A stretch of DNA of 63,775 nucleotides, the filler included, from Candidatus Tectimicrobiota bacterium (lineage in GTDB: Bacteria > JACPSX01): the NCBI GenBank assembly GCA_016193065.1. It is 10 parts of 10 records of this genome, joined end to end, with 100 filler letters (N's around TTAATTAATTAA, not from the genome) between each part and the next. Parts side by side here need not be neighbours in the genome. Positions count along the whole stretch, not along the records: positions 19,264 to 33,969 come from JACPSX010000149.1; 9 more parts are not named here. One strand, given 5' to 3'. The notes below the pieces were generated by a model. The model saw nothing but the letters and a program-made list of their open reading frames with translations, was not told the DNA's origin and ran no database searches. Position numbers and translations under genes: made by a program. Position 1 is the stretch's first letter; each line of letters begins with the position of its first letter. Positions 2,702-61,219 of the stretch are shown one piece after another.

Positions 2702-2801
2702 NNNNNNNNNNNNNNNNNNNNNNNNNNNNNNNNNNNNNNNNNNNNTTAATTAATTAANNNNNNNNNNNNNNNNNNNNNNNNNNNNNNNNNNNNNNNNNNN
2801 N
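2702..2801. other. Contig-join linker
   Basis: N44-TTAATTAATTAA-N44 six-frame stop linker. Confidence 0.98.
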
Positions 2802-4247: not shown

Positions 4248-5003
4248 TCAGGCAAGTCTCATCAGTGGATTCAACTGTTCAAAGAACTCCCCGATCTCTC
4301 TATCCCACCGGTAGTCCGCCAGTGAATCCAGCGGCGTGTCGTCCCTATTAATGATGGCAAGCAGGGCGCCGCTTTGTTTCGCAATCACCGGGAAAGAGGC
4401 AGCCGGCTGAACAACAAGGGAAGAGCCCACGACGATGAAGACCTTTGCCGCCTCGCTCCACTCCTGGGCGCGCTGCATGGCCCGCAGGGGCATCTGCTGG
4501 CCGAAGGAAATGGTGGCGGGCTTTAGATAGCCGCCGCACGCATCGCAGATCGGAGGACGAAAATCGCCGACGATTCTCTCATAGATTGCGTTCGGTTCAA
4601 ATTCTTTCCCGCACTGCAGACAGGTGACTTTTCTGTCCGTGCCGTGCAACTCCACGATTTTTTCCTCGGAAACTCCGGCCATCTGGTGGAGCCCGTCCAC
4701 ATTCTGCGTGATAAGACCCAGCAATTGGCCCCTCTTCTCAAACTCGGCAATCGAGTAGTGCCCGATATTCGGCTTCACGTTCTTGTAAAGTTCGTTAGTT
4801 TCCTTCTTCATCTTCCAATATTGGATGCGCGCAGCCTCGCTGTCCAGAAAGTCCGAGTAATAGACCGGCGTGTATCTTGTCCAGATCCCCCCCGGACTGC
4901 GGAAGTCGGGTACGCCGGATTCCGTGCTGATTCCCGCCCCGGTGAAGAAGACAACGTCACGGCAGGCTTTCAGTCCGCTGGCAAAGTCCTGCAGTGTCAT
5001 CAT
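4248..5003 (-). CDS. NAD-dependent protein deacylase, Sir2/sirtuin family
   Basis: GAGISTESGVPDFR, TQNVDGLH, ELHG, CxxC/CxxC zinc site, VGSSLVVQPAA. Confidence 0.95.
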   Translation of the reverse strand: MMTLQDFASGLKACRDVVFFTGAGISTESGVPDFRSPGGIWTRYTPVYYSDFLDSEAARIQYWKMKKETNELYKNVKPNIGHYSIAEFEKRGQLLGLITQNVDGLHQMAGVSEEKIVELHGTDRKVTCLQCGKEFEPNAIYERIVGDFRPPICDACGGYLKPATISFGQQMPLRAMQRAQEWSEAAKVFIVVGSSLVVQPAASFPVIAKQSGALLAIINRDDTPLDSLADYRWDREIGEFFEQLNPLMRLA

Positions 5004-5137
5004 AAAGGATTCCCTCATGGGTCGAGGCCGGGTACAGCCCGTATTATAGAACTTCCGGGAGTCAAAACTCCAGTGAATGCGCTCTCGCTTTCGAGAAGAT
5101 CCGAGCTTCTGGCCTAACAGGTTGCTGAGAATGTCCT

Positions 5138-5270
5138 TTTCGTGGTTCGACAAGCCTGTCCTGCACCCGGAAGCCGGGTACCCGGTCGAAGGGCTCACCA
5201 CGAACGGAGAAACTTCCAGAATTTCAATGCGTGATCCGTTCGCTCTGAGCGTGTCGAAGGGCGAGCGGAG
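5138..5270. repeat. Pair of inverted REP-like repeats (TTCGAC..CTCA..CGAACGGA type); first copy contains a 22-nt micro-element
   Basis: TTCGTGGTTCGACAAGC...GTCGAAGGGCTCACCACGAACGGA and TCCGTTCGCTCTGAGCGTGTCGAAGGGCGAGCGGA. Confidence 0.65.
5163..5184 (+). repeat. 22-nt micro-element GCACCC-GGAAGCC-GGGTACCCG
   Basis: Exact reverse complement at 38159-38180; same architecture at four other loci. Confidence 0.8.
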
Positions 5271-9613: not shown

Positions 9614-9713
9614 NNNNNNNNNNNNNNNNNNNNNNNNNNNNNNNNNNNNNNNNNNNNTTAATTAATTAANNNNNNNNNNNNNNNNNNNNNNNNNNNNNNN
9701 NNNNNNNNNNNNN
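9614..9713. other. Contig-join linker
   Basis: N-TTAATTAATTAA-N. Confidence 0.98.
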
Positions 9714-19163: not shown

Positions 19164-19263
19164 NNNNNNNNNNNNNNNNNNNNNNNNNNNNNNNNNNNNN
19201 NNNNNNNTTAATTAATTAANNNNNNNNNNNNNNNNNNNNNNNNNNNNNNNNNNNNNNNNNNNN
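19164..19263. other. Contig-join linker
   Basis: N-TTAATTAATTAA-N. Confidence 0.98.
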
Positions 19264-20935: not shown

Positions 20936-20952
20936 NNNNNNNNNNNNNNNNN
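20936..20952. other. Intra-scaffold N gap
   Basis: 17 N without linker. Confidence 0.95.
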
Positions 20953-22617: not shown

Positions 22618-22761
22618 TGTCTGATCATCCTCCGAGTATGAGTCTCCCGACCCTCTAGCCAGCCCCGTTTGCCTCTTGTCTATTGAGATGAAAGCCGCCC
22701 GAGAAGGATTCAGAGAGATTCCTTCAACCCGGTCAGGATGAGGGAAATAGCACAAGCCCGC

Positions 22762-23070
22762 TCAAAGTGGGGGGTAGCGCTCCCACATCTTCTCGTTCAG
22801 AAAGCGCTTCAGCCGCAGGCGGATCTCGGAGGGCATGCTGTCGCAGGAAATCTCCCGGCTTAAGTCAATCGTCTGCCGGTAGGTCCTCATCATCGCGAAA
22901 CAGTTTGGGCAATCCGTAAAATGAGAATCGAGTCGGGCGCGATCCCCGCCAAGCATGGTTCCGTCCACGTAGTCGATGAGCAGCCGCGTAAGAGCCTCGC
23001 AAGAAATCCCCCTGGTCGCCAGAAGCCAGCAGCCTAAGCTGCTCCACAATTTTCTAAACAGGCTAAACAT
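22762..23070 (-). CDS. zf-HC2 zinc-binding anti-sigma factor (orphan copy)
   Basis: C..LTRLLIDYVDG...HFTDCPNC (HxxxCxxC). Confidence 0.88.
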   Translation of the reverse strand: MFSLFRKLWSSLGCWLLATRGISCEALTRLLIDYVDGTMLGGDRARLDSHFTDCPNCFAMMRTYRQTIDLSREISCDSMPSEIRLRLKRFLNEKMWERYPPL

Positions 23071-23164
23071 CGCCGCCCACTCCTGCTTCGTTTCTTTTGG
23101 ATAGCCCGGACCGGCCGGATACTGAGAACGGAGTCCGGCTCCCGCAACGTGTGAATCTTCTGCG

Positions 23165-23200
23165 AAGAAGAAAAAAGGGGGCCCCGAAGGGCCCCCCGGA
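23165..23200 (-). terminator. Rho-independent terminator after repeat-protein paralog B
   Basis: GC-rich GGGGGCCC-TTCG-GGGCCCCC stem-loop followed by a T-run on the minus strand. Confidence 0.85.
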
Positions 23201-23209
23201 GATTGGCAG

Positions 23210-23536
23210 CTAGCTGATCTCCCGATCCAGACTCTCCTGAGCAATGCTTCCCGGAGCCCGATCCACTAGCTCGGGCAGCGCGCTACCCGAAACCACGGCG
23301 GGCACCGCCGGAGAATTGATCTCCCGATCCAGACTTGCCTGCGCGATGCTGCCCGGGCCTCGGTTCTGCCGATCCCATACCTCGCTTGCGGGCACGGTGG
23401 CGGAAACCGCCGGGGAGTTGATCTCCCGATCCAGACTCGCCTGGGCGATGCTTCCAAACTCTGCCCAGGCACTGGCAGACCCAAGAACCAGGACCGCCGC
23501 AACCGTCAAACCCATCAGACTTTTTCCTGCCTTCAT
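23210..23536 (-). CDS. Secreted GSIAQ/SLDREI tandem-repeat protein, paralog B (108 aa, complete)
   Basis: Signal peptide ending ASAWA-E; three GSIAQ(A/E)SLDREI units; AGGAGG RBS; own terminator. Confidence 0.85.
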   Translation of the reverse strand: MKAGKSLMGLTVAAVLVLGSASAWAEFGSIAQASLDREINSPAVSATVPASEVWDRQNRGPGSIAQASLDREINSPAVPAVVSGSALPELVDRAPGSIAQESLDREIS

Positions 23537-23690
23537 GACCTTCCTCCTAGTTAATCTGTTTGTTGAGTCTCGCTCTCCCGGCTCTATCGCCAGGTTCACT
23601 TACTTCTTGCCTACTAAGATGAAAAAGATCCGGGAAGGATTCAGGAATTTTGCAGATGGGTCGGGATGACGGAACAGAAGAAGGACCAGA

Positions 23691-23999
23691 TTAAAGAGGG
23701 GGGTAGCGCTCCCACATCTTCTCGTTCAGGAAGCGTTTCAGGCGCAGGCGGACCTCGGAAGGCATGCAATCACTGGAAATTCCCCGGCTTAAGTCGATCG
23801 TTTGCCGGTAGGTCCTCATCATCGCGAAACAGTTGGGGCAATCCGTGAAATGAGAATCGAGTCGGACGCGGTCCCCAGCCGGCATGGTTCCGTCCACATA
23901 CTCGATGAGCAGCCGCGTAAGCTCCTCGCAACGAATCCCCCTGGCCGCTAAAAACCACCAGCCCAGGCTGCTCCACAATTTTCTAAACAGGCTAAACAC
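23691..23999 (-). CDS. zf-HC2 anti-sigma factor
   Basis: CEELTRLLIEYVDG...HFTDCPNC; near-identical to 22762-23070. Confidence 0.88.
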   Translation of the reverse strand: MFSLFRKLWSSLGWWFLAARGIRCEELTRLLIEYVDGTMPAGDRVRLDSHFTDCPNCFAMMRTYRQTIDLSRGISSDCMPSEVRLRLKRFLNEKMWERYPPL

Positions 24000-24619
24000 C
24001 GCCTCCCTCTCCTGTTTCGGGCTGCCGGTTGCCCGCATCGGTCAGATACCGGGAGAGGTTCTCCCGTACAAACAGACGCGCCCGATGCAGCCGGGACTTT
24101 ACCGCAGCTACCGACAGACCGCAAATTTGTCCCACCTCCTCGTTGCTCAGACCATCGACATCTTTCAGGAGCAGGACTTCCCGATACTCGCCGGGGAGCT
24201 TTTGAATGGCCGCATCCAGGTGCCTGGCCAGTTCCTTGCTCAAAGCCCCGCCTTCCACCCGGTCCGTCCAGTCCTCCACGGGTCCCGAACCGGGGCATGT
24301 AATCGTCCAGGGAAACCGTGGCTTCTTGTTCCTTCTTGCGCCCCCGGAGCTTCAGGTAGCAGAGATTTTTGGCGGTGGTGAAAACCCATGGCAGGAAAGA
24401 GCCCGGTTCCCTCAGCGTGCCAATCTTCTCCAAAATGGTAACAAAGACCTCCTGGAGTACCTCCTCGGCGTCGGCGCTGTCGCCCGTCATTTTCAGCGCG
24501 TAGTAGTAGAGCTTCTCCTGGCACTGCTCCAGGATAGACTCTAGCGCCGTCTTATCCCCGGATTGGAGTCGCTTGACAGCCTCGGCGAGGGTCGCACTAA
24601 CCTGCATATCCTTGACCAT
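23992..24619 (-). pseudogene. ECF sigma factor, frameshifted by a net 14-nt deletion near 24286
   Basis: DAEEVLQEVF (region 2) and LSNEE...VKSRLHRAR (region 4) lie in different frames; intact paralog has MPRF-NRGHI-GAVEDW. Confidence 0.85.
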
Positions 24620-27482: not shown

Positions 27483-27545
27483 CCGGATTGTTCAGCCAAC
27501 CACGGGAGGATAGAGGAAATCACTTGATAACTTCCATCGAAACGG

Positions 27546-28034
27546 TTACCCCCCGTAATTTAGGTTGTGTTCACGCATGAGAATCGTTTCGTCCTGCCGC
27601 CGCATACCGGCTCCCAGCACTTCTCCCACAAAGAGCGTGTGGTCGCCTTTGGCGACCTCGCCAACAATTTTACACTCCCACCATGCCGGTGCGTTCAGCA
27701 GCAGCGGGCAGCCCGTTGCCGGACCGGGTTCGAAATGCTCCCCGCCGATCGAATCTCCCTGCCGCTGATGCGACTTAAAAAAGTTGAATGCCATGTCCCG
27801 CTGCTCCCTGCCGATGACGTTCATTGCAAAAACACCGGTATCTTTGATATGACGGTGGACACCCGAGTCGACCTTCACGCCAATCGCGACGAGAGGCGGT
27901 TTAAAGGAAGTTTGCGTGATCCAGTTGACAGTAGCCGCACCAACGTCCCGGTCGTCCTTACTCCTGGTTGTGAGGACGAACATTCCGTACGGGATCATGC
28001 GGAGCGCCGTCTTTTTGGCGTTTTCATCGAGCAT
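27546..28034 (-). CDS. Flavin reductase family protein
   Basis: LRMIPYG.FVLT, TQTSF.PPLV, GDHTLFVGEV. Confidence 0.9.
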   Translation of the reverse strand: MLDENAKKTALRMIPYGMFVLTTRSKDDRDVGAATVNWITQTSFKPPLVAIGVKVDSGVHRHIKDTGVFAMNVIGREQRDMAFNFFKSHQRQGDSIGGEHFEPGPATGCPLLLNAPAWWECKIVGEVAKGDHTLFVGEVLGAGMRRQDETILMREHNLNYGG

Positions 28035-28269
28035 CAGAGTACCCCCTCTACTCCAACTCTACGCAGACTCAATTCCGGATTCGATGGGAATCGAGTTTTC
28101 GCCTGATCGCATTGCGGAATAAGGTTACGATACCTCCTCGCCGGAACAATGTCCAGGGTCCTCCGGGAAACATCCGGAGCCGCGATCTTGCGGAGCGCGG
28201 GGAAGAATAAAAGGTTTTTGGCCGGGTAATGCTGCGTGGGGAAGAAAAAGAACCAGATCGAGGGAAGGA

Positions 28270-28566
28270 TCAGCGCTCCTGTATTTTCTCCTTCAGGAAG
28301 CGCTGCAGGCGCAGGCGGACCTCGGAGGGCATGGAGTTGTTGGAAACCCCCCGGCTCAAGTCAATCGTTTGCCGGTAGGTTCTCATCATCGAGAGACAGT
28401 GGGCGCAGTCCTTGAAATGAGCATCGAGCCGGGTGCGATCCTCGGCGGGCAGAGTACCATCGACGTAGCCGATGAGCAGCCGAACCAGTTCCTCGCAACT
28501 GACTCCACGGGCCGCTGAGAACCAGCAGCCCAGTGTATCCCGGACTTTCTTCAGCAAGTTGAACAC
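28270..28566 (-). CDS. zf-HC2 anti-sigma factor
   Basis: CEELVRLLIGYVDG...HFKDCAHC. Confidence 0.88.
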   Translation of the reverse strand: MFNLLKKVRDTLGCWFSAARGVSCEELVRLLIGYVDGTLPAEDRTRLDAHFKDCAHCLSMMRTYRQTIDLSRGVSNNSMPSEVRLRLQRFLKEKIQER

Positions 28567-28571
28567 TGTCC

Positions 28572-29198
28572 CTACTCCCAGCTCGCCTGCTTTGTCCCCG
28601 CACCGGTCAGATACTGAGAGAGATTCTCCCGTACAAACAGGCGCGCCCGGTGCAGCCGGGATTTTACCGCAGCCACTGACAGACCGCAAACCTTTCCCGC
28701 CTCCTCGGCGCTCAAGCCTTGGACATCTCTGAGGAGCAGGATTTCCCGGTACTCGATGGGGAGTTTCTGAATGGCCGCATCCAGGTGCCTGGCCAGTTCC
28801 TTGCTCAGTGCCCCGCTCTCGACCCGGTCCGACCAGTCCTCCACGGCCCCTATGTGCCCGCGGTTGAACCGGGGCATGTAGTCCTCCAAGGATACTGTGG
28901 CATCTTGATCCTTCCTGCGCCCCCTGAGCTTCAAGAAGCACAGATTCTTTGCGGTGGTGAACACCCATGGCAGAAAAGAGCCCGGCTCCCGCAGCGTGCC
29001 GATCTTCTCCAGCACCGTAACAAAGACTTCCTGGACAACCTCCTCCGCGTCCGCGGGGTTGCCGGTCATTTTTAAGGCATAATAGTAGAGGCGCTCCTGG
29101 CACTGCTCGAGGATAGACTCCAGAGCCGCCTTATCCCCGGATTGCAGTCTCGTGACGGCCTCGATGAGGGTGTCGGTGTTTTGCGGATTCCTTGCCAT
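28572..29198 (-). CDS. ECF RNA polymerase sigma factor (intact)
   Basis: DAEEVVQEVF, FLPW, LP.EYRE.LLLRD, VKSRLHRAR. Confidence 0.93.
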   Translation of the reverse strand: MARNPQNTDTLIEAVTRLQSGDKAALESILEQCQERLYYYALKMTGNPADAEEVVQEVFVTVLEKIGTLREPGSFLPWVFTTAKNLCFLKLRGRRKDQDATVSLEDYMPRFNRGHIGAVEDWSDRVESGALSKELARHLDAAIQKLPIEYREILLLRDVQGLSAEEAGKVCGLSVAAVKSRLHRARLFVRENLSQYLTGAGTKQASWE

Positions 29199-29387
29199 GG
29201 ATCCCAGATTCCCCGGTTGCCAGCATACCCTGGGTTTAACTGACTCTACAACAAAACATGGATGGCGGGCTACAAGTTCCTTTGACCGGAAAGTATTTTC
29301 AGACCCTAGCGAAAAATCAAGGGGAAACACGGCCGGGGCTGCACCGGCTGGCCCCGGCCGTGATCACCTCCCTCCCCTGAACCGCAA

Positions 29388-30059
29388 TCAGGGCCGGCTG
29401 GCGTATCGGTCCGGGAACTGCTTGGCGATTGCATCGGCCAGCGGGTTCGCGATCATTTGCATGTGGTTGTAAGCCATCCGCAACGCCGTATAGGCCTTGA
29501 CTGGATCCTTGGCCGCCTGGGCATCGATCACCTCCTTCAGCGTGAGAATGTGAGACTTGACCAGTTCTGCCACGGTGGCCTTGGGCAGATTCGGGTTCGC
29601 AGAACTGAGAAAGGCACCGAAATCATCAGCGTACCCGAGCAGGTCGCTGACGGCCTTGTCCTGCTTGGCCTTATCATTGCTCGCCGCCCCGACGGTGTAG
29701 TCCACCACGAAGCTGATATGCTTGCGCCACAGGGGCAAGAAGGCCTTCTCCGCCTCAACGTCGTACACAGAGCCGATCGCCCTCGAGATGTCAATCGAGT
29801 TCGAGTCCAGGGCATCGGCGGCAGCCTTGAATTCTGCCTGACGCCCACCCAGCGCTGCTCCCGTAGCGGCTGCGGCGAGAATCACGTGCTCACCAAACAG
29901 CGTGTTGAGCCCTGTACGCAAATCGGCGTATTTGGTGGTTGAGGTCCGGGGCATCGAGAGATCCATAGAGCCCCGTTCGGCGGTGGCCATGCTGCACCCC
30001 GTGGCGAGCAGTGCAATCAAGGCTACGGTCCCGGTGAGACGGGCAAACATCTTGTTCAT
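29388..30059 (-). CDS. Helical lipoprotein of the family often annotated as copper amine oxidase-associated
   Basis: LATGC lipobox; DLR..LN.LFGEHV, LWRKHI, HILTL, HMQMIA His/Met pattern. Confidence 0.65.
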   Translation of the reverse strand: MNKMFARLTGTVALIALLATGCSMATAERGSMDLSMPRTSTTKYADLRTGLNTLFGEHVILAAAATGAALGGRQAEFKAAADALDSNSIDISRAIGSVYDVEAEKAFLPLWRKHISFVVDYTVGAASNDKAKQDKAVSDLLGYADDFGAFLSSANPNLPKATVAELVKSHILTLKEVIDAQAAKDPVKAYTALRMAYNHMQMIANPLADAIAKQFPDRYASRP

Positions 30060-30077
30060 CACTTCCTCCTTTTCCTC

Positions 30078-30455
30078 TTAGTTGACGCGGATCTGACCGC
30101 GCATGGAGTTATGCCGGGTGCAGAAATACGAGTAGGTTCCGGCCTGCGTAAACGTGAAACTAAATGTGGATCCCTTGCCCTGCAGCCGCCCGTTAAACCG
30201 GCTGTCCGGGCTCTCCGGAGTTCCCGAGGTAATGGTGTGCAAAATATCATCCTGGTTGGTCCAGGTGACCCGTGTGCCCGCCTTCACCTCCAGCAGGGCA
30301 GGCCTGAACTGGAAGGTCTGGATGGTAACACTCGCTCCCGGCGTGGGGTTGGATTCGACGTTGTCTCCGGAAGCAATGCCGACGACCGGTTTATCAGAGA
30401 GTCCTACCAGCCCCAGCACCGCAAGGAACCCAAGGGTTGCCATAATGCGCTTCAT
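30078..30455 (-). CDS. Cupredoxin (plastocyanin/azurin family) protein, exported
   Basis: WTNQD..HT and YFCTRHNSM type-1 copper ligands. Confidence 0.9.
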   Translation of the reverse strand: MKRIMATLGFLAVLGLVGLSDKPVVGIASGDNVESNPTPGASVTIQTFQFRPALLEVKAGTRVTWTNQDDILHTITSGTPESPDSRFNGRLQGKGSTFSFTFTQAGTYSYFCTRHNSMRGQIRVN

Positions 30456-30602
30456 CTGATCCCCCTCCTTTCTCCCTTTGCCTTCTCTACGATTGCTTGG
30501 CCGGTTTGGATTTCCTGCCCTCAAAAGATTAAACTGGCGTTTACAGATGGACTCGCAACGCGGCTCTTCCGGCTCACTCACGCCGAAAGCTCTTCGGGAG
30601 CC

Positions 30603-30642
30603 GCACCCATAGGATGGGTACCCGCATCCTGGGTGTGGGCAC
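30603..30642. repeat. Nested micro-element (GCACCC-ATAGGAT-GGGTACCCG inside an inverted ACACCC-AGGAT element)
   Basis: Flanks are the reverse complement of 55358-55386. Confidence 0.75.
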
Positions 30643-30754
30643 TCCCGAAGATGCCGAATAGGAACTGGGGGTGGGCAAGGTCTCCAGTCTTATTGACAGA
30701 TGCGAAAGGTCTGTGCTAGGGACAGACGCCAGAGGACCGGATCAAGGAGGCCAG

Positions 30755-31330
30755 ATGTCTGCGGACCTGAAGGACGACCCGGTTCAGTTAATCCAACAGG
30801 TTGCCGGTGGGGACCGCGAGGCGTTTGGGCGGCTTTATGACCGCTACGCCTCGCTCGTCTTCACCTTCGCTGTACGCCTGCTCAATCGGCCCTCCGAGGC
30901 AGAAGATCTCCTCCAGGAAGTCTTCCTGCAGGTCTGGCGCCAGGCGAGAACCTATCGCCAAGACCGGGGGAGCCCGGAGGCGTGGATCACCATGATCACT
31001 CGGAGCCGGGCAATCGATAAGCTTCGTTCCATACGTAGAATAGAGAAGAGCCTCACGTCCCTGGAGAATGCGCCTGGCGTGAAGTCTGGAGGTACAGTGG
31101 AGACCGTAAGTGAGGAATCGGAGTTAAACCTGACGGTGCGCGGGGCTCTGGCCGAGCTTCCTGAGGTCCAACGGAGGGTGCTGGAACTGGCTTATTTTGA
31201 AGGGTTAACGCAGTCCGATATTGCCGCACGCCTGGGAGAGCCGCTGGGTACGGTAAAGACCCGCATGCGTGCCGGCCTGGAACGGCTGCGGGGATTTCTC
31301 GGTGCAAAGGCCAAAGGGGAGCTCTCATGA
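30755..31330 (+). CDS. ECF sigma factor, SigK-like
   Basis: GDREAF..LYDRY, AEDLLQEVF.QVW, RSRAID, LGTVKTRMR. Confidence 0.92.
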   Translation: MSADLKDDPVQLIQQVAGGDREAFGRLYDRYASLVFTFAVRLLNRPSEAEDLLQEVFLQVWRQARTYRQDRGSPEAWITMITRSRAIDKLRSIRRIEKSLTSLENAPGVKSGGTVETVSEESELNLTVRGALAELPEVQRRVLELAYFEGLTQSDIAARLGEPLGTVKTRMRAGLERLRGFLGAKAKGELS

Positions 31331-32085
31331 ACCACGAAGAGTGGCTTGCACGAGCAGAAATTTATGCCCTGGGCGCCCTGGACGGAGAGGATCTGACCCT
31401 GTTCGAAGCTCATCTAGCCTCAGGGTGTAGCTCTTGCGAGACACGCCTCCGCGAGACCCAGGAAACGCTCACCCTTCTCCCTCGCTCCCGCACGCCGCTA
31501 GCCCCTCCACCTGCCGTCAAGGCCAGGCTCCTTGCCCAAATTGCAGGGGAAGCAAGCAGGCCTCAGGAGAAAAGACTTCCCGGCTGGCTTTCATGGGGGG
31601 TGGGAGCCGGGGCTTTGGTAGCCGCCAGCTTGTTGATTGTTTTAGGCTGGAACCTCTCCGTCACGAGGCAAGAGATGCAAAGGCTCAAAAACCAGGTGGC
31701 TGCCCTGGGAGATGAAGTGAACCAGCAACAAGAGGTCGTTCGCTTCCTCTCCGACCCCCAGGTGCGCTTCGTCCAGCTTGCAGGCCTTGCGCCAAGCCCT
31801 GCAGCCACGGGTCGGTTACTGTGGAATCCGGTGAAGCATGCGGGGCTTTTCCTGAGCAGCGGCCTTCCTCCGACCCCATCCGGCAAAGCATACGAGCTTT
31901 GGGCTATTGCCGGCAGCGAGCCCGTCCCGGCTGGCGTCTTTACCGTCGATCAGGGAGGCCGGGTCCTCTATCGTCTCCCACCTCTACCCGAAACAAAAAC
32001 GTTCGACAAGTTCGCGGTCACGCTGGAGCCCGCAAGTGGTGTTCCCAAACCCTCCGGCGCCATGTACCTGCTCGGGAGCTTGTAA
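31327..32085 (+). CDS. Anti-sigma factor, RskA-like
   Basis: YALGALD...HLASGCSSC, TM helix, YELWAI, FAVTLEP..G...PSG. Confidence 0.9.
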   Translation: MNHEEWLARAEIYALGALDGEDLTLFEAHLASGCSSCETRLRETQETLTLLPRSRTPLAPPPAVKARLLAQIAGEASRPQEKRLPGWLSWGVGAGALVAASLLIVLGWNLSVTRQEMQRLKNQVAALGDEVNQQQEVVRFLSDPQVRFVQLAGLAPSPAATGRLLWNPVKHAGLFLSSGLPPTPSGKAYELWAIAGSEPVPAGVFTVDQGGRVLYRLPPLPETKTFDKFAVTLEPASGVPKPSGAMYLLGSL

Positions 32086-32099
32086 GGCAGAGATTTGCG

Positions 32100-32463
32100 C
32101 CCCGGCGTGAGCAAGCTTCTGTGCAAAGCTGCGGTGGGCCGGGAAGTGCTCGCCCGGATGAGCCTCGCGGGTATATACGAAGAGAAAGGCAATACCCTTT
32201 GCCGCAAACTGCCGCGCCATCGGTTCAAGCGCCAGCGCCGCCAGCGCACAGTAAGGTCAGGTCAGCGAGCCAAACTCAATGACCACGTCACCCTTTCGCC
32301 AATAGTCACTCAGTTGAACCGATTGGCCAGTTTCAAGAAGCATAGCCTGAAAGTCGGGTGCCGGGGATCCCACGGGTAAAATGGTGCGAAATGCCAAGAA
32401 TTCCTCTGAACCCACAAACCGGCTGTAGTTATAAACTTCGATCTCCGCCTGATCGATCATCAC
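32100..32463 (-). pseudogene. Iodothyronine deiodinase-like/peroxiredoxin-fold selenoprotein, C-terminally truncated
   Basis: VGSPAPDF...EFGSLT-TGA(32259-32257)-PYC...FVYTREAHPGE in one frame; homology seems to end where the convergent anti-sigma gene ends. Confidence 0.75.
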
Positions 32464-32850
32464 GCACCCCCTTTCCTACCCTCACTACTCTACGGGTCTT
32501 AACTCGACCCGCCAGCGCAACTTTCCTCTGGAAACCTCCCGCCCCAAGCCCGAAAGCACAAATGGAAGCGATGGATATGCCATCAAGAAGTCGGCGGGTT
32601 CCGACTTCCCGGTAAAGTATCAACCTTTCGATAACACCGGTCAAGTCCCGATCCCACATTTCACAAGCGAAACTGCCTCCTCTCTTTCCTTTGAAAATTT
32701 GTCTGTCTCACTCCTTCCACCGTCGTCATTGTAAGCTTGCCTACAATGCAGGCTGATTCGGACCCCTATCATGACCAACGGGTCCATTGGAGTGGCTTGA
32801 CAGGAAAAGCGGAGGCAGTACAATCACCCGAAAGGGAGGGGAATCGCCAG

Positions 32851-33969
32851 GTGAACCTTCGGCGCCTGAAGTGGATTGCCATCATCGTCCCCTTGGGATT
32901 CCTGATCCTTCTGGAGGTCGTCCGCTACCTCTACCTTGAACCGCTACTCCCTTATCCTACGGGCCACCTGCTGGCCATCGCTGTGATGATTCCCGCCGTC
33001 TATTTGTTTTCGCACTCGATCTTCACGATTATTACACGAATGGAGCAGGAAGTTCTCCGGCACAATCGCCATCTTGCGGCCATGAACCAGATCCTGACCG
33101 CCGTATCCCGCTCCCTGGAACTCGACGAAATCCTTCAGGTGGCTCTGGATCAGGTCTTGGAGGTGATGCAGATCGAGATGGGAGCCATCGCCCTGCTGGA
33201 TGCCGAAAAGGAGGAGCTTAAAATAGCCGTCAACAGGGGACTCCCTCCTGAGATATACCTGCATGTAAAGTGTTTAAAGCTTGCCGACGCTCCGCTCGAA
33301 TGGGAGGTAGTGCGGTCGGGAAAGCCGGCAGTTATCGAAAACCTGATGGAGGATCCCCGAGTCTTGGATATTGCCAAGCAGGCAGGGTTCCAGTCCCTCG
33401 TCTGCTTGCCGCTGAAATCAAAGGGAGTGGTGCAGGGATTGCTGGGCATCGCCAGCTGCCAGAAGCGGAGCTTCAGCCAGTCAGATGTAGATCTCCTGAT
33501 GGCCACAGGCAGCCAGATCGGCATGACCATCGAGAACGCTCGGCTTTTCGCCGAGGCCCGTAAACAGAGCGAGCGGCTCCGGATCCTGCAGGAGCGGGAG
33601 CGCATCGCCATGGACCTCCATGACGGCGTCATCCAATCCCTCTATGCCGTCGGCCTGAGCCTGGAGAGCTGCGCCGAGACGGCGCGCGAAGCCCCGGAGG
33701 AGGTGACCCGGAAAATCGACCGAGCGGTGGATGATCTCAACGGCGTCATCAAGGATATTCGCAATTACATCTTCGACTTGCGCCCCAATCCAATGGGGGC
33801 AGAAGGCATCAAAGGGGCACTGGAGGAAACCGTCAAAGCTTTCAGGGTGAATTCCCTCCTGGAGGCGGAGCTCAGCGCGGAGGAAGTAGAGGGGCTCGGC
33901 CAGGAAGAGATCGTCCAGCTCGCCCACATCGCGCAGGAGGCTCTGGCCAATATCATGAAACACGCCCGG
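32851..33969 (+). CDS. GAF-domain sensor histidine kinase, HisKA_3 type (3' truncated)
   Basis: Two TM helices, GAF, ERERIAMDLHDGVIQSLY, QEALAN..KHA. Confidence 0.9.
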
Positions 33970-34069
33970 NNNNNNNNNNNNNNNNNNNNNNNNNNNNNNN
34001 NNNNNNNNNNNNNTTAATTAATTAANNNNNNNNNNNNNNNNNNNNNNNNNNNNNNNNNNNNNNNNNNNN
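33970..34069. other. Contig-join linker
   Basis: N-TTAATTAATTAA-N. Confidence 0.98.
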
Positions 34070-36688: not shown

Positions 36689-39593
<2,905 letters not shown>

Positions 39594-41557: not shown

Positions 41558-41657
41558 NNNNNNNNNNNNNNNNNNNNNNNNNNNNNNNNNNNNNNNNNNN
41601 NTTAATTAATTAANNNNNNNNNNNNNNNNNNNNNNNNNNNNNNNNNNNNNNNNNNNN
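41558..41657. other. Contig-join linker
   Basis: N-TTAATTAATTAA-N. Confidence 0.98.
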
Positions 41658-49865: not shown

Positions 49866-49965
49866 NNNNNNNNNNNNNNNNNNNNNNNNNNNNNNNNNNN
49901 NNNNNNNNNTTAATTAATTAANNNNNNNNNNNNNNNNNNNNNNNNNNNNNNNNNNNNNNNNNNNN
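49866..49965. other. Contig-join linker
   Basis: N-TTAATTAATTAA-N. Confidence 0.98.
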
Positions 49966-52620: not shown

Positions 52621-52720
52621 NNNNNNNNNNNNNNNNNNNNNNNNNNNNNNNNNNNNNNNNNNNNTTAATTAATTAANNNNNNNNNNNNNNNNNNNNNNNN
52701 NNNNNNNNNNNNNNNNNNNN
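52621..52720. other. Contig-join linker
   Basis: N-TTAATTAATTAA-N. Confidence 0.98.
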
Positions 52721-53859: not shown

Positions 53860-55345
53860 TGGAACTCCTCTTTCCGCCGCTTTCCGATCTCATGCTGATT
53901 GCTCCCGAGCTGGTGCTGACGATCGGTATTTGCCTGGTTCTTGTTGCGGACCTGTTTGTTCCCAAACCCCGCAAGAGTCTTCTGGGAGTTCTGAGTCTGA
54001 TCGTAGTTCTGGCCACGCTGCTGGCGAGCTTCCCTCTGCTGCGGACCCGGGGGGAGGCCTTTGCAGGAATGATGCTCCTGGACGGCTACGCCATGTTCTT
54101 CAAGGTGGTCTTCCTGCTGGTCACGGGCCTCACGATCCTTATCTCTTTGCGTTACATCGCCGTCGAGGACATCAACCTGGGCGAATACTACGGGCTCCTG
54201 CTGTTCGCCACTCTGGGAATGATGATCATGGCAGCCGGGGGGGACTTGATCTCCATCTACCTGGGCCTGGANNNNNNNNNNNNNNCCTGGGCCTGGAGCT
54301 CTTGTCCATTTCCTGTTACGTTCTGTGCGGGTTCATCAAACGGGATCCCAAGTGCGTGGAGGCTTCCCTGAAATTCTTCCTGGCCGGCGCTTTCACCTCC
54401 GGGGTGCTTCTATACGGCATGGCCCTTCTCTACGGTCTCACGGGGTCGACCAACTTGGGGGAAATCTCCCGGTATCTGAGCAGCCAGGACCTGTCCGGCA
54501 GTCCGGTCCTCATGCTGGCAATGGTGATGCTGGTGGCGGGTTTCGGCTTCAAGATTGCGGCCGTCCCGTTCCACATGTGGGTCCCGGATGTCTATGAGGG
54601 GGCTCCCACTTCGGTGACCGCCTTTCTGTCCACGGGCTCCAAGGCAGCCGGCTTTGCGGCGGTCCTGCGGGTCTTCTTCTCGGGGCTGGAGGTCCTCAAA
54701 CCACAATGGATCGTTCTCCTATGGGTCTTGTCCGCGCTGACCATGATCCTGGGCAACGTAGTGGCCGTGGCGCAGAGCAATATCAAGAGGATGCTGGCCT
54801 ATTCCAGCGTGGCTCACGCGGGGTATGTGCTCATGGGTTTTGCGGTGGGCAACGAGCGCGGGCTTTCGGCGGTCCTCTTCTATACGCTGGTGTACGTTTT
54901 CATGACCCTGGGAGCCTTCAGTATGGTGATCCTCATTTGCCGGCGGGGCCACCGGGGGGATCAGATCGAGGACTTCAAGGGCATGGCCCGCTCGAACCCC
55001 GTTGCCGCGTTCGTTTTCGTCCTCTTTCTCCTGTCCCTGGGAGGGATCCCCCCCACCGCCGGATTTGTCGGGAAGCTCTATCTGTTTGCGGCGGCCATCG
55101 AGGAGAAATTTTACTGGCTCGCCCTCATCGGAGTGGTCACCAGCGCCATCTCCATTTACTACTACTTCAAGGTGGCCATGGTGATGTACATGCAGGGAGA
55201 AGGAGGCGCGCGCGAGATCTCGCTTTCTCCCGCGCTCTTGTCCGCGCTGGGGATCATGGTTCTGGGAACGCTGCTGGTCGGCATCTACCCGGGGCCGTTT
55301 CTGGAAGTCGCCCGCTCCTCCGTCTTCCCCCTGATCGGATTCTAG
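53859..55345 (+). CDS. nuoN: NADH-quinone oxidoreductase subunit N (split only by a scaffold gap)
   Basis: LGLELLS, FKIAAVPFHMW.PDVYEGAPT, KRMLAYSS, GIPPTAGF.GK; CCTGGGCCTGGA duplicated either side of gap 54272-54285. Confidence 0.93.
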
Positions 55346-55363
55346 GAAGAGACCACGGTGCCC

Positions 55364-55383
55364 ACACCCAGGATGGGTACCCG
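55364..55383 (+). repeat. Micro-element variant ACACCC-AGGAT-GGGTACCCG
   Basis: Un-nested form of the locus at 30603-30642. Confidence 0.75.
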
Positions 55384-55450
55384 GCTCACGAAGCGCTTGC
55401 GACGTGAATTGTGTGGGCCGGATTGAGAGTTCTCTTCCTCGCAACCGCTT

Positions 55451-55550
55451 NNNNNNNNNNNNNNNNNNNNNNNNNNNNNNNNNNNNNNNNNNNNTTAATT
55501 AATTAANNNNNNNNNNNNNNNNNNNNNNNNNNNNNNNNNNNNNNNNNNNN
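55451..55550. other. Contig-join linker
   Basis: N-TTAATTAATTAA-N. Confidence 0.98.
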
Positions 55551-56964: not shown

Positions 56965-57462
56965 TCATTGCACCTCGCCAAGACCCTGATCGGGAATGAC
57001 AGGATCAGGGTCTTGGCGATCCCGGCGGCGGTCCTGGCGGTCCTCTCTCAGGTCCCGGCGATCGCGCCTGGCGTCCCGGCGATCCCGGCGGAGATCCCGC
57101 ACGTCTTCTTTGAGTTCGCGGCGGTCGTTGCGGATTTCCTGCTTATCGTCACGGATCTCCTGACGGTCCTTGCGGGTACCCGCCTTGCGGGTGTCCTCCT
57201 TGCTGGCCCCGCTCCGAATATCTTCCCTTAGTTCCTTGCGATCTTCTCGCAGTTCCTGTTTGTCTTTGCGGAGCTCCTGGCGGTCGCGCTGAATTTCCCG
57301 GCGGTCCTGCTTCATTTCCTGGTGATCCCGCTTTACTTCGCGGGCATCCCGGCGCACCTCCCGGCCCCGTCCCTTCTCGGCGGCTGCGGAAGCCGTGAAC
57401 AGGGCCAGAGCGATGCAAGCTACGGAAAAGACAAGCGAAACGGATTTGCTGCTGGGTCTCAT
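56965..57462 (-). CDS. Secreted Arg/Asp/Glu-rich heptad-repeat protein
   Basis: Signal peptide then many DRRELRE-like heptads. Confidence 0.8.
   Translation of the reverse strand: MRPSSKSVSLVFSVACIALALFTASAAAEKGRGREVRRDAREVKRDHQEMKQDRREIQRDRQELRKDKQELREDRKELREDIRSGASKEDTRKAGTRKDRQEIRDDKQEIRNDRRELKEDVRDLRRDRRDARRDRRDLREDRQDRRRDRQDPDPVIPDQGLGEVQ
57173..57194 (-). repeat. 22-nt micro-element inside the heptad-repeat CDS
   Basis: ACACCC-GCAAGGC-GGGTACCCG, within codons DTRKAGTR. Confidence 0.8.
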
Positions 57463-59374: not shown

Positions 59375-60019
59375 ATGATTCTCGTGATTGATAATTATGA
59401 CTCGTTCACCTATAACCTGGTCCAGTACTTCCAGGAACTGGGTGCTGAAGTCGTAGTCCGTCGCAACGATGCGATAACGCTGCCGGCCATACGGGCCTTG
59501 CCACTGGAAGGGATCGTTCTCTCGCCGGGCCCCCGGACTCCCGCAGAGGCGGGGATCACCCCCAAGGTAGTCTCTACCTTTGCCGGTACAATCCCCATTT
59601 TGGGGGTTTGCCTGGGGCACCAAGCCATCGGCTGGTGCTTTGGAGGCAGGATTGGCCGGGCCAGGCGCCTGATGCACGGCAAAAAATCCACGATTAGTCA
59701 CGACGGCAAGGGAGTCTTCCGGGGTCTGCCAAACCCTTTGGAGGCGATCCGCTACCATTCCCTGGCGATCCTGGAGGAAGGATTTCCTGACGAGCTCGAG
59801 ATTACTGCGAGGTCCGAAGACGGGGAGATTATGGGGGTCCGCCATCGCTCGTTTCCCGTGGAGGGCGTCCAGTTCCACCCCGAATCGATCTTGACGGAGC
59901 GGGGCAAGGATTTGCTGGCCAATTTTCTGCACATGATCGAGATGTCTTCATCACACGGAAGCCGGCACCCGCAAGGCGCGGGTACCCACGAAGCGGGTGC
60001 GGCAGGAGGAGGGGCATGA
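59375..60019 (+). CDS. trpG: Anthranilate synthase component II (glutamine amidotransferase)
   Basis: [33 protein letters not shown]. Confidence 0.95.
59965..60001. repeat. Nested micro-element in the trpG 3' end
   Basis: GCACCC-GCAAGGC-G[CGGGTACCC-ACGAAGC-GGGTGC]G. Confidence 0.8.
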
Positions 60020-61119: not shown

Positions 61120-61219
61120 NNNNNNNNNNNNNNNNNNNNNNNNNNNNNNNNNNNNNNNNNNNNTTAATTAATTAANNNNNNNNNNNNNNNNNNNNNNNNN
61201 NNNNNNNNNNNNNNNNNNN
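61120..61219. other. Contig-join linker
   Basis: N-TTAATTAATTAA-N. Confidence 0.98.

What the first reader, a model, noticed from the sequence alone, without database searches (positions are those of the whole stretch)
30603..30642. Filled and empty site pair suggests the micro-element replaces 7 nt rather than simply inserting
Seen: 55358-55386 reads GTGCCCACACCCAGGATG-GGTACCC-GGCT. The minus strand here reads GTGCCCACACCCAGGATG-[CGGGTACCCATCCTATGGGTGC]-GGCT, so 7 nt are swapped for 22 nt with no target duplication. The trpG locus parses the same way, and at 38198 an element's loop is replaced by an inverted copy. Inference: a replacement-type mechanism with a net gain of 15 nt.
Basis: partly seen in the sequence, partly recalled or inferred. 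Interest (0 to 1): 0.7.

Follow-up and report, generated by a model that had tools for sequence, protein, structure and literature searches.

The report
Two copies of a hairpin repeat
The supposed filled and empty sites are two copies of one small hairpin-rich repeat that differ by one hairpin arm; this kind of bacterial repeat is ordinary, but its 22-base hairpin module recurs in many genomes.

Summary
Both quoted strings are in the window as written. They are not an occupied and an unoccupied target. The 18-nt "left flank" is the first arm plus loop of a hairpin that closes on the GGGTACCC core. To the right, similarity continues past GGCT (22 of 27, then further). Both sites are therefore copies of one roughly 100-nt hairpin repeat. 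Copy B has 9-bp terminal inverted repeats and abuts the nuoN stop codon. Copy A lies where depth in the source metagenomes rises 8-16 fold and contigs break. The "7 nt" (GGTACCC) sits inside the "22 nt", so the real difference is a 2-nt and a 13-nt indel: one extra arm. The window's genome and close relatives are not held.

The module CGGGTACCC-N6-8-GGGTGCGG is real. In about 146-nt mobile repeats of G303 and G306 it is present or absent at three slots. There it stands in place of 7-11 nt, with no duplication, for a net gain of 14-17 nt.

So substitution without duplication is a real pattern. I read it as mosaic recombination or template switching among hairpin repeats (inferred). No Y1 transposase gene is flanked by the module.

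The parts
30563..30660 (-). Copy A of the roughly 100-nt hairpin-rich repeat, lying between a cupredoxin-like ORF (30078-30581, -) and an ECF sigma factor gene (30671-31330, +)
   Evidence: It aligns locally with copy B. An nhmmer profile of A+B finds only these two places (E 3e-24 and 6e-27). It folds into a long hairpin, z -4.8 on either strand. Depth in the bin holding it is 8-16 times that of its neighbours in runs X1-X3, and contigs break at 30610 and 30629-30631.
30625..30642 (-). It is in fact the first arm (GTGCCC) and loop of a hairpin that closes on GGGTAC of the core
   Evidence: It has an exact 18-nt twin at 55358-55375. The pairing is seen in the fold of B.
30616..30623 (.). Palindromic core GGGTACCC, shared by A and B
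   Evidence: 8 occurrences in the window against 0.87 expected.
30603..30615 (-). ATCCTATGGGTGC: loop plus second arm, present in A and absent from B. With the core it forms the canonical module CGGGTACCC-N7-GGGTGCGG (30601-30624, -)
   Evidence: Alignment; module pattern.
30577..30602 (-). Shared right part of the repeat (GGCTCCCGAAGAGCTTTCGGCGTGAG). 30577 is the edge at which other copies in the metagenome diverge
   Evidence: 22/27 identical to 55383-55409. Loose ends lie 'before' 30576-30578 in X2 and X3.
30591..30600 (.). Outer inverted repeat TCTTCGGGAG, partner of 30642-30651 (CTCCCGAAGA)
55344..55439 (+). Copy B of the same repeat, bounded by 9-bp terminal inverted repeats AGGAAGAGA (55344-55352) and TCTCTTCCT (55431-55439). 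The left repeat overlaps the TAG stop of nuoN (55343-55345). The contig ends at 55450
   Evidence: The fold is closed by the terminal repeats, z -3.5 (+ strand) and -4.6 (- strand). By eye, 23 of 28 letters of 55410-55440 (reverse complement) match a loose-end consensus of another copy (X2, before 30576).
55358..55382 (+). Hairpin of B, GGTGCCCA / loop / TGGGTACC, including the core GGGTACCC (55375-55382). It has no second arm
55383..55409 (+). Shared right part of the repeat in B (GGCTCACGAAGCGCTTGCGACGTGAAT)
59965..60002 (+). Double hairpin GCACCC-N9-GGGTACCC-ACGAAGC-GGGTGCGG inside the 3' tail of trpG, just before the trpD ribosome-binding site and start. Its 24-nt module is 23/24 identical to a copy in G303
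   Evidence: G303 copy L172.
38147..38231 (+). Two tandem units of a second module-bearing repeat (CCCTTCGACC-GGGTACCC-loop-GGGTGC-AGGRCAGGC) in the first 30 codons of a glmU-like ORF. In the second unit the 7-nt loop is replaced by 19 nt holding an inverted module
5140..5205 (-). Single unit of that second repeat (module at 5163-5183), closed by an 8-bp inverted repeat, upstream of the Sir2 domain of ORF 4248-5201

Best explanation
Sites A (about 30563-30660, read on the minus strand) and B (55344-55439) are two paralogous copies of one short, non-coding, hairpin-rich repeat of the MITE/REP/BIME kind. The repeat is multi-copy in this uncultured groundwater bacterium.

Each copy is built around the palindrome GGGTACCC. 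In both, an upstream arm GTGCCC folds back on GGGTAC. Copy A also has a downstream loop and arm (ATCCTATGGGTGC) that fold back on GTACCC. This gives the canonical 22-24-nt module CGGGTACCC-N7-GGGTGCGG and makes the whole a long palindrome. Copy B lacks that arm. The 15-nt difference is thus the gain or loss of one arm beside a shared palindromic core. It is not insertion of a 22-nt unit into a 7-nt target.

Shown: the homology of A and B beyond the quoted strings; the multi-copy status; the folds; the recurrence of the module in the window and in many other genomes; its presence or absence at fixed slots of larger repeats without duplication; and the mobility of those larger repeats, from orthologous empty sites.

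Inferred: the modules are gained, lost and swapped by replication template switching or gene conversion between the many near-identical hairpins, including inverted duplication across the palindromic core. The resulting variants then spread passively when the carrier repeat multiplies.

Also inferred: the hairpins act on one strand, as RNA or single-stranded DNA. The conserved G-T pair would be a C-A mismatch on the other strand. In 4 of the 5 window loci the favourable strand is the sense strand of the gene the copy sits in or just after; the fifth, site A, lies between divergent genes and is ambiguous.
For: Homology of A and B. They share 18 exact nt (expected 0.10) and then 22/27 directly after GGCT, a level only 2 of 125,062 window 27-mers reach. 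The gapped local alignment scores 64 and spans about 80 nt. A profile of A+B finds only A and B in the window.

Repeat status. The depth bin 30524-30739 reads 130 against about 15 (X1), 431 against about 26 (X2) and 48 against about 5.5 (X3). The longest listed contigs stop at 30610 or start at 30629-30631. Many different loose ends lie at 30576-30578, 30615-30618, 30625 and 30640-30648. B has 9-bp terminal inverted repeats.

Module. GGGTACCC occurs 8 times against 0.87 expected. GGGTACCC-N7-GGGTGC gives 9 hits at up to 2 mismatches (4 exact) against 0.76 expected, and 0 of 100 shuffles reach 9. It is in 0 of 160 unrelated loci. G303 has 27 copies at up to 1 mismatch against a control of 1. 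36 of 61 relatives of G303 hold CGGGTACCC-N6-8-GGGTG, at up to 122 copies, with controls of 0-1. The trpG module is 23/24 identical to G303 copy L172.

Slots. In G303, slot 2 of the backbone is filled in 18, empty in 28 and partial in 1 of 47 copies; slots 1 and 3 are filled in 2 each. In G306 slot 2 is filled in 6 and empty in 19 of 25 copies, slot 3 in 4 and slot 1 in 1. No flanking direct repeat exceeds 4 nt in 71 modules.

Reshuffling. Filled and empty states occur with all three 5' module types in G303: type A 11 filled, 16 empty and 1 partial; type B 2 filled, 6 empty; type C 2 filled, 4 empty. One G306 copy (758692) looks like a deletion between two modules of one backbone.

The carrier is mobile. 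A 146-nt backbone sits in G306 at a site that is empty in G303 and G308, with flanks 84-91% identical. One is present in G303 and G306 but absent in G308. G306 cleanly lacks the G303 element at 4 of 8 further sites compared.
Against: The direction of the A/B difference is not resolved. No copy of this particular repeat was found outside the window: 0 of 401 genomes, and no close relative in two collection scans. The family-wide table for this organism therefore could not be made.

The backbone repeats of G303 are not demonstrably homologous to A/B. Their profile does not find A and scores B at E 6.7. The slot evidence is therefore by analogy through the shared module.

Template switching is inferred from anatomy only. 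No junction carries a diagnostic signature. The second arm of A is an imperfect inverted copy of the first: ATCCT, then a 2-nt insertion, then GGGTG.

None of the longest contigs listed bridges 30610-30631 (180 more were not shown). The exact internal arrangement of A therefore rests on the original assembly and could be a join of two half copies at the palindrome.

Pairing of the letters next to the conserved stem (19 of 26 distinct loops) is not significant against shuffles: 171 of 2000 reach it.
Confidence: 0.7

Rival explanations
1. One reading: the 22-nt hairpin is itself a tiny mobile element that enters by a dedicated cut-and-replace reaction, removing about 7 nt and adding 22 (net +15) without target duplication.
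For: At three slots of the G303/G306 backbone the module stands in place of 7, 9 or 11 nt, with a net gain of 14-17 nt and no duplication. Slot 3 is exactly 7 against 22 nt. Slots 1 and 2b share one apparent target, RGAGGGGG, turned into C-GGG-[TACCC..GGGTGC]-GG. The module occurs in at least four unrelated repeat families of G303/G306 and three contexts in the window. It is nearly identical in genomes whose TrpD is only 55% identical.
Against: The A/B pair itself is not a target pair. The 7 nt are contained in the 22. Net changes vary from +12 to +17. Recent insertions are of whole carrier repeats that already hold the module. No orthologous carrier copy was found that differs only by the module: the one shared copy examined has both modules in both genomes. 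No enzyme candidate was found: 0 of 26 Y1 transposase loci carry the module nearby.
Confidence: 0.2
2. The module is a REP sequence moved by a REP-associated tyrosine transposase (RAYT), and A is a REPIN-like doublet.
For: It is a short imperfect palindrome, mostly between genes or at gene ends, in tens to more than 100 copies, singly and as inverted doublets sharing a core, with no duplication. Y1 transposase genes exist in the module-rich genomes. One of them in G303 is flanked by hairpins whose 12-nt centre CGGCTTTGCCGG equals that of the backbone's central hairpin.
Against: No unpaired GTAG or CGTC tag is present (sequences; feature taken from PMC3733652, passages). 0 of 26 Y1 loci in six genomes have GGGTACCC within about 1.5 kb. 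G342 has 101 modules but only one weak Y1 fragment, 24.6 bits. No Y1 gene lies in the window, though 64 kb is a small sample.
Confidence: 0.1
3. The hairpins are not mobile at all. They are binding sites or RNA stability and terminator elements kept by selection, and 'replacement' is stem-for-stem substitution within a structured RNA or DNA.
For: There is a conserved strand-specific G-T pair. Loops are of stable types: GCTTGC (CUUG), GAGA, GAA and GCA. The central stem of the backbone covaries, CTCC/GGAG against CTCAC/GTGAG. B sits directly after a stop codon, and 4 of 5 window copies lie sense to their host gene. The core extends to a 10-12-nt palindrome, (C)CGGGTACCCG(G), in several copies, as a dimeric protein site would.
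Against: Copy number varies from 0 to 122 among related genomes. Copies lie in tandem arrays and at contig ends. Carrier repeats come and go between genomes about 90% identical. No Rfam family matches.
Confidence: 0.15
4. Copy A's double hairpin is an assembly artefact: two half copies from different loci were joined at the palindromic core.
For: The longest listed contigs of all four runs stop at 30610-30616 or start at 30629-30631. Other left and right partners are seen as loose ends at 30615-30625.
Against: The runs hold 0.80-0.96 of the sampled 31-mers of 30100-31300. 180 pieces were not listed. Double hairpins of the same design occur at 59965-60002 and 38199-38231, inside contigs.
Confidence: 0.1

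Closest known systems
REP / BIME mosaic repeats and REPINs (Bertels and Rainey 2011, PMC3116915, abstract and passages read; Di Nocera et al. 2013, PMC3733652, passages read)
   Same: Short imperfect palindromes of 20-40 nt, found singly, as inverted doublets and in clusters mixed with other conserved motifs. They lie after stop codons, between genes and sometimes inside ORFs. G-T pairs mark one strand. Copy number varies widely among relatives. [quoted passage not shown]
   Different: There is no GTAG or CGTC tag. No Y1/RAYT gene is flanked by the module in the six genomes searched. Doublets share one palindromic core instead of being two units with a spacer.
Small dispersed repeats (SDR) of Nostocaceae (Elhai et al. 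2008, Genome Res 18:1484). The paper is not held; it is known here only through citing passages in PMC4390886, PMC5861425 and PMC3116915, and from recall
   Same: Modules of about 21-27 nt that appear inside other repeats and hairpin contexts without target duplication. SDR5 is reported to enter precisely between the 3rd and 4th base of an octameric palindrome, HIP1 (PMC4390886, section 3.3, passage read).
   Different: Here the octameric palindrome is part of the module rather than a genome-wide target. The host is not a cyanobacterium. No comparison with the SDR sequences or with that paper's own mechanism could be made, because the text was not available.
MITEs, and IS200/IS605-derived palindrome-associated elements
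   Same: Copy B has 9-bp terminal inverted repeats and is about 96 nt long. The 146-nt carrier in G303/G306 shows orthologous empty sites, sits after (G)ATAG and ends in (G)ATRG, and forms head-to-tail arrays. This is as expected for target-specific single-strand transposition.
   Different: No autonomous partner with matching ends was identified. Whether the 4-5 nt at the ends is a duplication or a target/cleavage motif is unresolved. The ends of the window's A/B family differ from those of the G303 carrier.
Quasi-palindrome template switching during replication (Ripley-type mutations; recalled, no paper read here)
   Same: It converts a half palindrome into a fuller one, or deletes an arm, around a short palindromic centre and without any duplication of flanks. 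That is the anatomy of the A/B difference and of the inverted module at 38199-38231.
   Different: It is known as a point-mutational mechanism at single loci. Here it would have to act repeatedly among dispersed copies. It was not tested.

Membership tests
REP / REPIN-RAYT system | Short (20-40 nt) imperfect palindrome, dispersed, many copies | tested here: met
   The window has 9 hits against 0.76 expected. There are 27-122 copies in several genomes. Depth spikes at A.
REP / REPIN-RAYT system | Conserved unpaired GTAG (or CGTC) tag at one end (PMC3733652) | tested here: not met
   Modules begin (C)CGGGTACCC and end GGGTG(C/G)GG. GTAC is paired, and there is no GTAG or CGTC tag.
REP / REPIN-RAYT system | A Y1 (RAYT) transposase gene flanked by the repeat | tested here: not met
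   0 of 26 Y1 loci in G303, G306, G308, G341, G342 and G346 hold GGGTACCC within about 1.5 kb. There is none in the window. The window's whole genome is not held, so the test is incomplete for this organism.
REP / REPIN-RAYT system | Inverted doublets forming long hairpins as the replicating unit | tested here: inconclusive
   A, the trpG copy and 38199-38231 are doublets, but they share one core. Most copies in relatives are single modules.
MITE | Terminal inverted repeats | tested here: met
   B has AGGAAGAGA / TCTCTTCCT, 9 bp. A has a 10-bp outer inverted repeat. The 5140-5205 copy has an 8-bp one.
MITE | Target-site duplication | tested here: inconclusive
   None is definable for A or B because no empty site exists. 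The carrier in G303/G306 has 4-5 nt (G)ATRG on both sides, which may be a duplication or a target motif.
MITE | Orthologous sites with and without the element | tested here: inconclusive
   Met for the carrier repeats of G303, G306 and G308. Not testable for the window's A/B family: no relative was found, and no empty allele appeared in four runs (tables 4 and 5).
Small dispersed repeats (SDR, Elhai 2008) | Module of 21-27 nt found inside other repeats and hairpins without target duplication | tested here: met
   The module is 21-25 nt and lies in at least 4 repeat families of G303/G306. No flanking repeat exceeds 4 nt in 71 modules. The feature list is partly recalled, because the paper is not held.
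Small dispersed repeats (SDR, Elhai 2008) | Sequence relatedness to SDR4-6, or cyanobacterial host | not testable with these tools
The host here is a groundwater bacterium whose best hits are Deltaproteobacteria and Binatia MAGs at 59%.
Rfam RNA families | Match to a curated covariance model | tested here: not met
   0 matches in the window at gathering scores. 0 at E up to 0.1 in eight G303 loci.

The most novel reading that the evidence does not exclude
The 22-24-nt hairpin CGGGTACCC-loop-GGGTGCGG is itself a self-propagating module. It colonises hairpin loops and G-rich tracts of other small repeats, and occasionally gene ends, by a copy-and-replace reaction with no target duplication and a net gain of 12-17 nt. 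It does this across distantly related bacteria without any linked transposase. That would make it a non-cyanobacterial counterpart of the SDR elements, whose mechanism has never been explained.
Probability: 0.25. Interest if true: 0.65.

Novelty: new member of a known kind. Interest (0 to 1): 0.4.

Why it matters
For this window, the result removes a false filled/empty pair. It also flags three gene ends whose reading frames run through repeat copies: the trpG tail, the glmU-like N-terminus and the Sir2 upstream region. Annotators should treat these with care.

More widely, a 22-nt hairpin module is nearly identical in genomes as far apart as 55% TrpD identity. It is present in 36 of 61 genomes of one clade at up to 122 copies, and it is swapped in and out of larger mobile repeats without duplication. 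That makes a compact test bed for how very small repeats spread, a question left open since REP, BIME and SDR elements were described. G303, G306 and G308 are about 86-92% identical and differ at many repeat sites. They could be mined for events that change the module alone.

Tried and rejected
No whole genome is held for the window.

Scans with the ECF sigma factor next to A found no close relative: genome contigs best 59%, metagenome contigs best 68%. Orthologous empty sites for A could therefore not be had.

The second showed no left-out or put-in letters and no joint at A in four runs of one study. That is only absence of a listed empty allele. Contigs drop rare variants, so it says nothing about absence.

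Rfam gave nothing.

The G303 backbone profile did not find A or B at a significant level: best window hit E 0.13 elsewhere, B at E 6.7. I dropped the idea that A/B are homologous to that backbone as a whole; only the module is shared.

A BLAST of copy B against 401 genomes of the phylum of G001 found nothing.

RAYT association was rejected.

Loop-closing pair covariation is not significant.

Literature searches for GGGTACCC with 'palindrom' (54 papers, 15 listed, none on such a repeat) and for the string GGTACCCGCTTGCGGGT (0 papers) found no description. The reverse-complement string was not searched, and subscription journals and supplements are not covered. Elhai 2008 could not be read.

57174-57194 (GGGTACCCGCCTTGCGGGTGT) lies in a 21-nt-periodic coding repeat. 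I left it out of the family as possibly chance.

Full report
WHAT IS THERE. The window is not one stretch of genome. It is about ten contigs joined by N44-TTAATTAATTAA-N44 linkers. No whole genome is held for it. The two places in the finding lie on different contigs. Site A (30603-30642) lies between a cupredoxin-like ORF (30078-30581, minus strand) and an ECF sigma factor gene (30671-31330, plus strand). Site B (55358-55386) starts 13 nt after the TAG stop of nuoN (53930-55345) and lies 65-90 nt from a contig end. Both quoted strings are correct. The shared 18-mer occurs exactly twice, against 0.10 expected.

WHY IT IS NOT A FILLED/EMPTY PAIR. There are four reasons.
- The 7 nt said to be replaced (GGTACCC) are contained in the 22 nt said to replace them. 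The best alignment needs only a 2-nt and a 13-nt gap.
- Similarity does not stop at GGCT. The next 27 nt are 22/27 identical, a level reached by only 2 of 125,062 27-mers in the window, and the gapped alignment continues to about 30563 / 55430.
- The 18-nt 'left flank' is structural. In B, GGTGCCCA pairs with TGGGTACC of the core. The whole of B is closed by 9-bp terminal inverted repeats, AGGAAGAGA (55344-55352, overlapping the nuoN stop) and TCTCTTCCT (55431-55439).
- A sits in a multi-copy repeat. When contigs of four groundwater-metagenome runs from one study are laid on 27500-33960, the bin holding A has 8-16 times the depth of its neighbours in X1-X3. The longest listed contigs end at 30610 or begin at 30629-30631. 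Many different loose ends start at 30576-30578, 30615-30625 and 30640-30648.

By eye, one such loose end (X2, before 30576) matches the far side of B at 23 of 28 letters. A and B are therefore two copies of one repeat of about 100 nt. A profile built from them finds nothing else in the window.

ANATOMY. Read on the minus strand, A is GTGCCC-loop-GGGTACCC-ATCCTAT-GGGTGCGG, followed by a second small hairpin. B has the first hairpin and the core but lacks ATCCTATGGGTGC. Both fold far better than shuffles: A z -4.8, B z -3.5 and -4.6. On this strand both hairpins of A carry G-T pairs that would be C-A mismatches on the other strand.

The unit GGGTACCC-N7-GGGTGC is a family. GGGTACCC occurs 8 times against 0.87 expected. 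The unit gives 9 hits at up to 2 mismatches (4 exact) against 0.76 expected. The other copies are these:
- 5163-5183, upstream of a Sir2 domain.
- 38160-38231, two tandem units in the first 30 codons of a glmU-like ORF.
- 59965-60002, a double hairpin read through in frame in the tail of trpG.

The TrpG of G303 ends 12 residues after the NFL motif; the window's ends 30 residues after it. At 55% TrpD identity that is too distant to define the bases gained or lost.

RELATIVES. Two collection scans with the neighbouring sigma factor found nothing closer than 59% and 68%. None of the 160 loci fetched holds the unit. A pattern scan of 301 genomes of the phylum of one hit found matches in 9. Only one genome, G303, had more than two. 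It has 27 copies at up to 1 mismatch against a control of 1. Among 61 relatives of G303, 36 hold CGGGTACCC-N6-8-GGGTG, at up to 122 copies, with controls of 0-1. The commonest form is CGGGTACCCGCTTGCGGGTG. The trpG module of the window is 23/24 identical to a G303 copy, although TrpD is only 55% identical.

In G303 and G306 almost all modules lie inside other repeats, chiefly a backbone of about 146 nt made of several hairpins. That backbone gave 68 BLAST matches in G303. The backbone is not demonstrably homologous to A/B. Copy B itself was found in 0 of 401 genomes.

THE REPLACEMENT PATTERN. Backbone copies exist with and without the module at three slots.
- Slot 2: TGGAGGGGGCG (11 nt) against CCGGGTACCC..GGGTGGCGGAG or TCGGGTACCC..GGGTGCGGCG (26-28 nt). 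It is filled in 18, empty in 28 and partial in 1 of 47 G303 copies, and filled in 6 and empty in 19 of 25 G306 copies.
- Slot 1: AGAGGGGGT (9 nt) against CGGGTACCCGYTTGCGGGTGCGGT (23-24 nt).
- Slot 3: CTCCGAC (7 nt) against CCGGGTACCCGCTTGCGGGTGG (22 nt).

No flanking direct repeat exceeds 4 nt in 71 modules, even with boundary shifts of 0-3 allowed, and 3-4 nt is trivial given the G runs. It ranges from +12 (the 38199 loop) to +17.

Filled and empty states occur with all three 5' module types of the backbone. The same loop variant occurs on different types. One G306 copy looks like a deletion between two modules of one backbone. This is the picture of a mosaic that recombines.

WHAT MOVES. 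The backbone is mobile.
- G306 has a 146-nt copy, with the module, at a site that is empty in both G303 and G308, with flanks 84-91% identical.
- Another copy is shared by G303 and G306, with both of its modules already decaying in G306, and is absent from G308.
- Of 8 further G303 sites located in 1.2 Mb of G306, 4 are cleanly empty in G306. The other 4 hold different repeats or an unrelated 1.9-kb insert.

Insertions follow (G)ATAG and end in (G)ATRG. Whether that is a 4-5-bp duplication or a target motif is open. I found no orthologous backbone pair that differs by the module alone, so a module-only event has not been seen.

Y1 transposase genes exist in these genomes: 7 matches in G303 and 21 in five others. 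None of the 26 loci examined has GGGTACCC nearby, and each is flanked by other hairpins. G342 has 101 modules but only one weak Y1 fragment. One G303 Y1 gene is flanked by hairpins whose centre, CGGCTTTGCCGG, equals that of the backbone's central hairpin. That is a lead for the carrier, not for the module.

MECHANISM. Shown: paralogy, multi-copy status, folds, module recurrence, slot polymorphism without duplication, and carrier mobility.

Inferred (confidence about 0.4 for this step): arms and modules are gained, lost and exchanged by template switching or gene conversion between near-identical hairpins. This includes inverted duplication across the palindromic core, which would turn a B-like half into an A-like full palindrome, or the reverse by deletion. 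Variants then spread with the carrier.

Weak hints that B is the derived form are three. Two-armed modules are the rule family-wide. No 13-nt-shorter form was listed among contigs at least 90% like A (this does not show absence). The only comparable truncated form in G303 is 1 of 47.

One caveat applies to A. No listed contig bridges 30610-30631, so A's exact arrangement rests on the original assembly.

COMPARISON WITH THE KNOWN. It works like REP/BIME mosaics and REPINs (PMC3116915, PMC3733652; passages read). It fails two defining REP-RAYT features, the GTAG/CGTC tag and a flanked RAYT gene. Copy B meets the terminal-repeat criterion of a MITE. The module's behaviour recalls the SDR elements of Nostocaceae, which are cited as entering a fixed position of the HIP1 palindrome (PMC4390886, PMC5861425; passages read). 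The original paper is not held, so that comparison is partly from recall. No Rfam family matches. Two literature searches for the module sequence found no description. These cover open full texts only, not supplements.

VERDICT. The pair is an ordinary case of two diverged copies of a small palindromic repeat. The interesting residue is the widely shared 22-nt module and its duplication-free substitutions. These deserve a proper strain-level comparison in G303, G306 and G308, or in a closed genome of this organism.

Noticed in passing
window 2702-2801, 9614-9713, 19164-19263, 33970-34069, 41558-41657, 49866-49965, 52621-52720, 55451-55550, 61120-61219: The window is a chain of contigs joined by N44-TTAATTAATTAA-N44 linkers, with two further short N runs at 20936-20952 and 54272-54285. 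Distances and neighbourhoods across these points mean nothing.
   Followed up: yes
window 38140-39593: The glmU-like gene appears split between two frames: 38140-38592 holds the start of the nucleotidyl-transferase domain and 38391-39593 holds the rest. Its first roughly 30 codons are encoded by the repeat units. The cause may be a frameshift or an assembly error.
   Followed up: partly
window 59933-60019: The trpG reading frame runs about 18 residues longer than in G303. It passes through the 36-nt double hairpin before a TGA that overlaps the trpD ATG, so the repeat is translated as part of TrpG if the frame is real.
   Followed up: partly
window 56965-57462 (-): This ORF has no Pfam match and is built of 21-nt periodic repeats (family D7). 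It holds a module-like string at 57174-57194 that may be chance.
   Followed up: no
window 22634-24586 vs 28253-29165: Several 250-300-nt direct repeats at 73-87% identity (D2, D3, D8) indicate paralogous sigma/anti-sigma-type gene cassettes on the same contig as site A.
   Followed up: no
window 30649: Most contigs of all four runs read G where the window has A (table 3). The position lies inside the outer inverted repeat of copy A. The difference probably reflects other copies of the repeat rather than an allele.
   Followed up: no
G306 C2 about 95900-96850 and 678030-678670: Long arrays of 9-nt units of the type GGGCGAGAM / GGGCGGGAM sit next to backbone repeats in G306, where G303 has module-bearing backbone units. 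This is another fast-changing repeat class at the same hot spots.
   Followed up: no
G306 C2:309839, C2:696323, C2:2914111, C1:162690 (L264, L273, L277, L269): There are four near-identical IS200-like Y1 transposase copies, flanked by the hairpin CCTCCCCGCCTACAAGGCGGGG. They are unrelated to the GGGTACCC module.
   Followed up: partly
G303 C202:400-1400 (L243): A Y1 transposase gene is flanked on both sides by GCCYCCGGCTTTGCCGGRGG. The 12-nt centre of this hairpin is identical to the central hairpin of the 146-nt backbone repeat, so this gene may be the backbone's mobiliser.
   Followed up: partly
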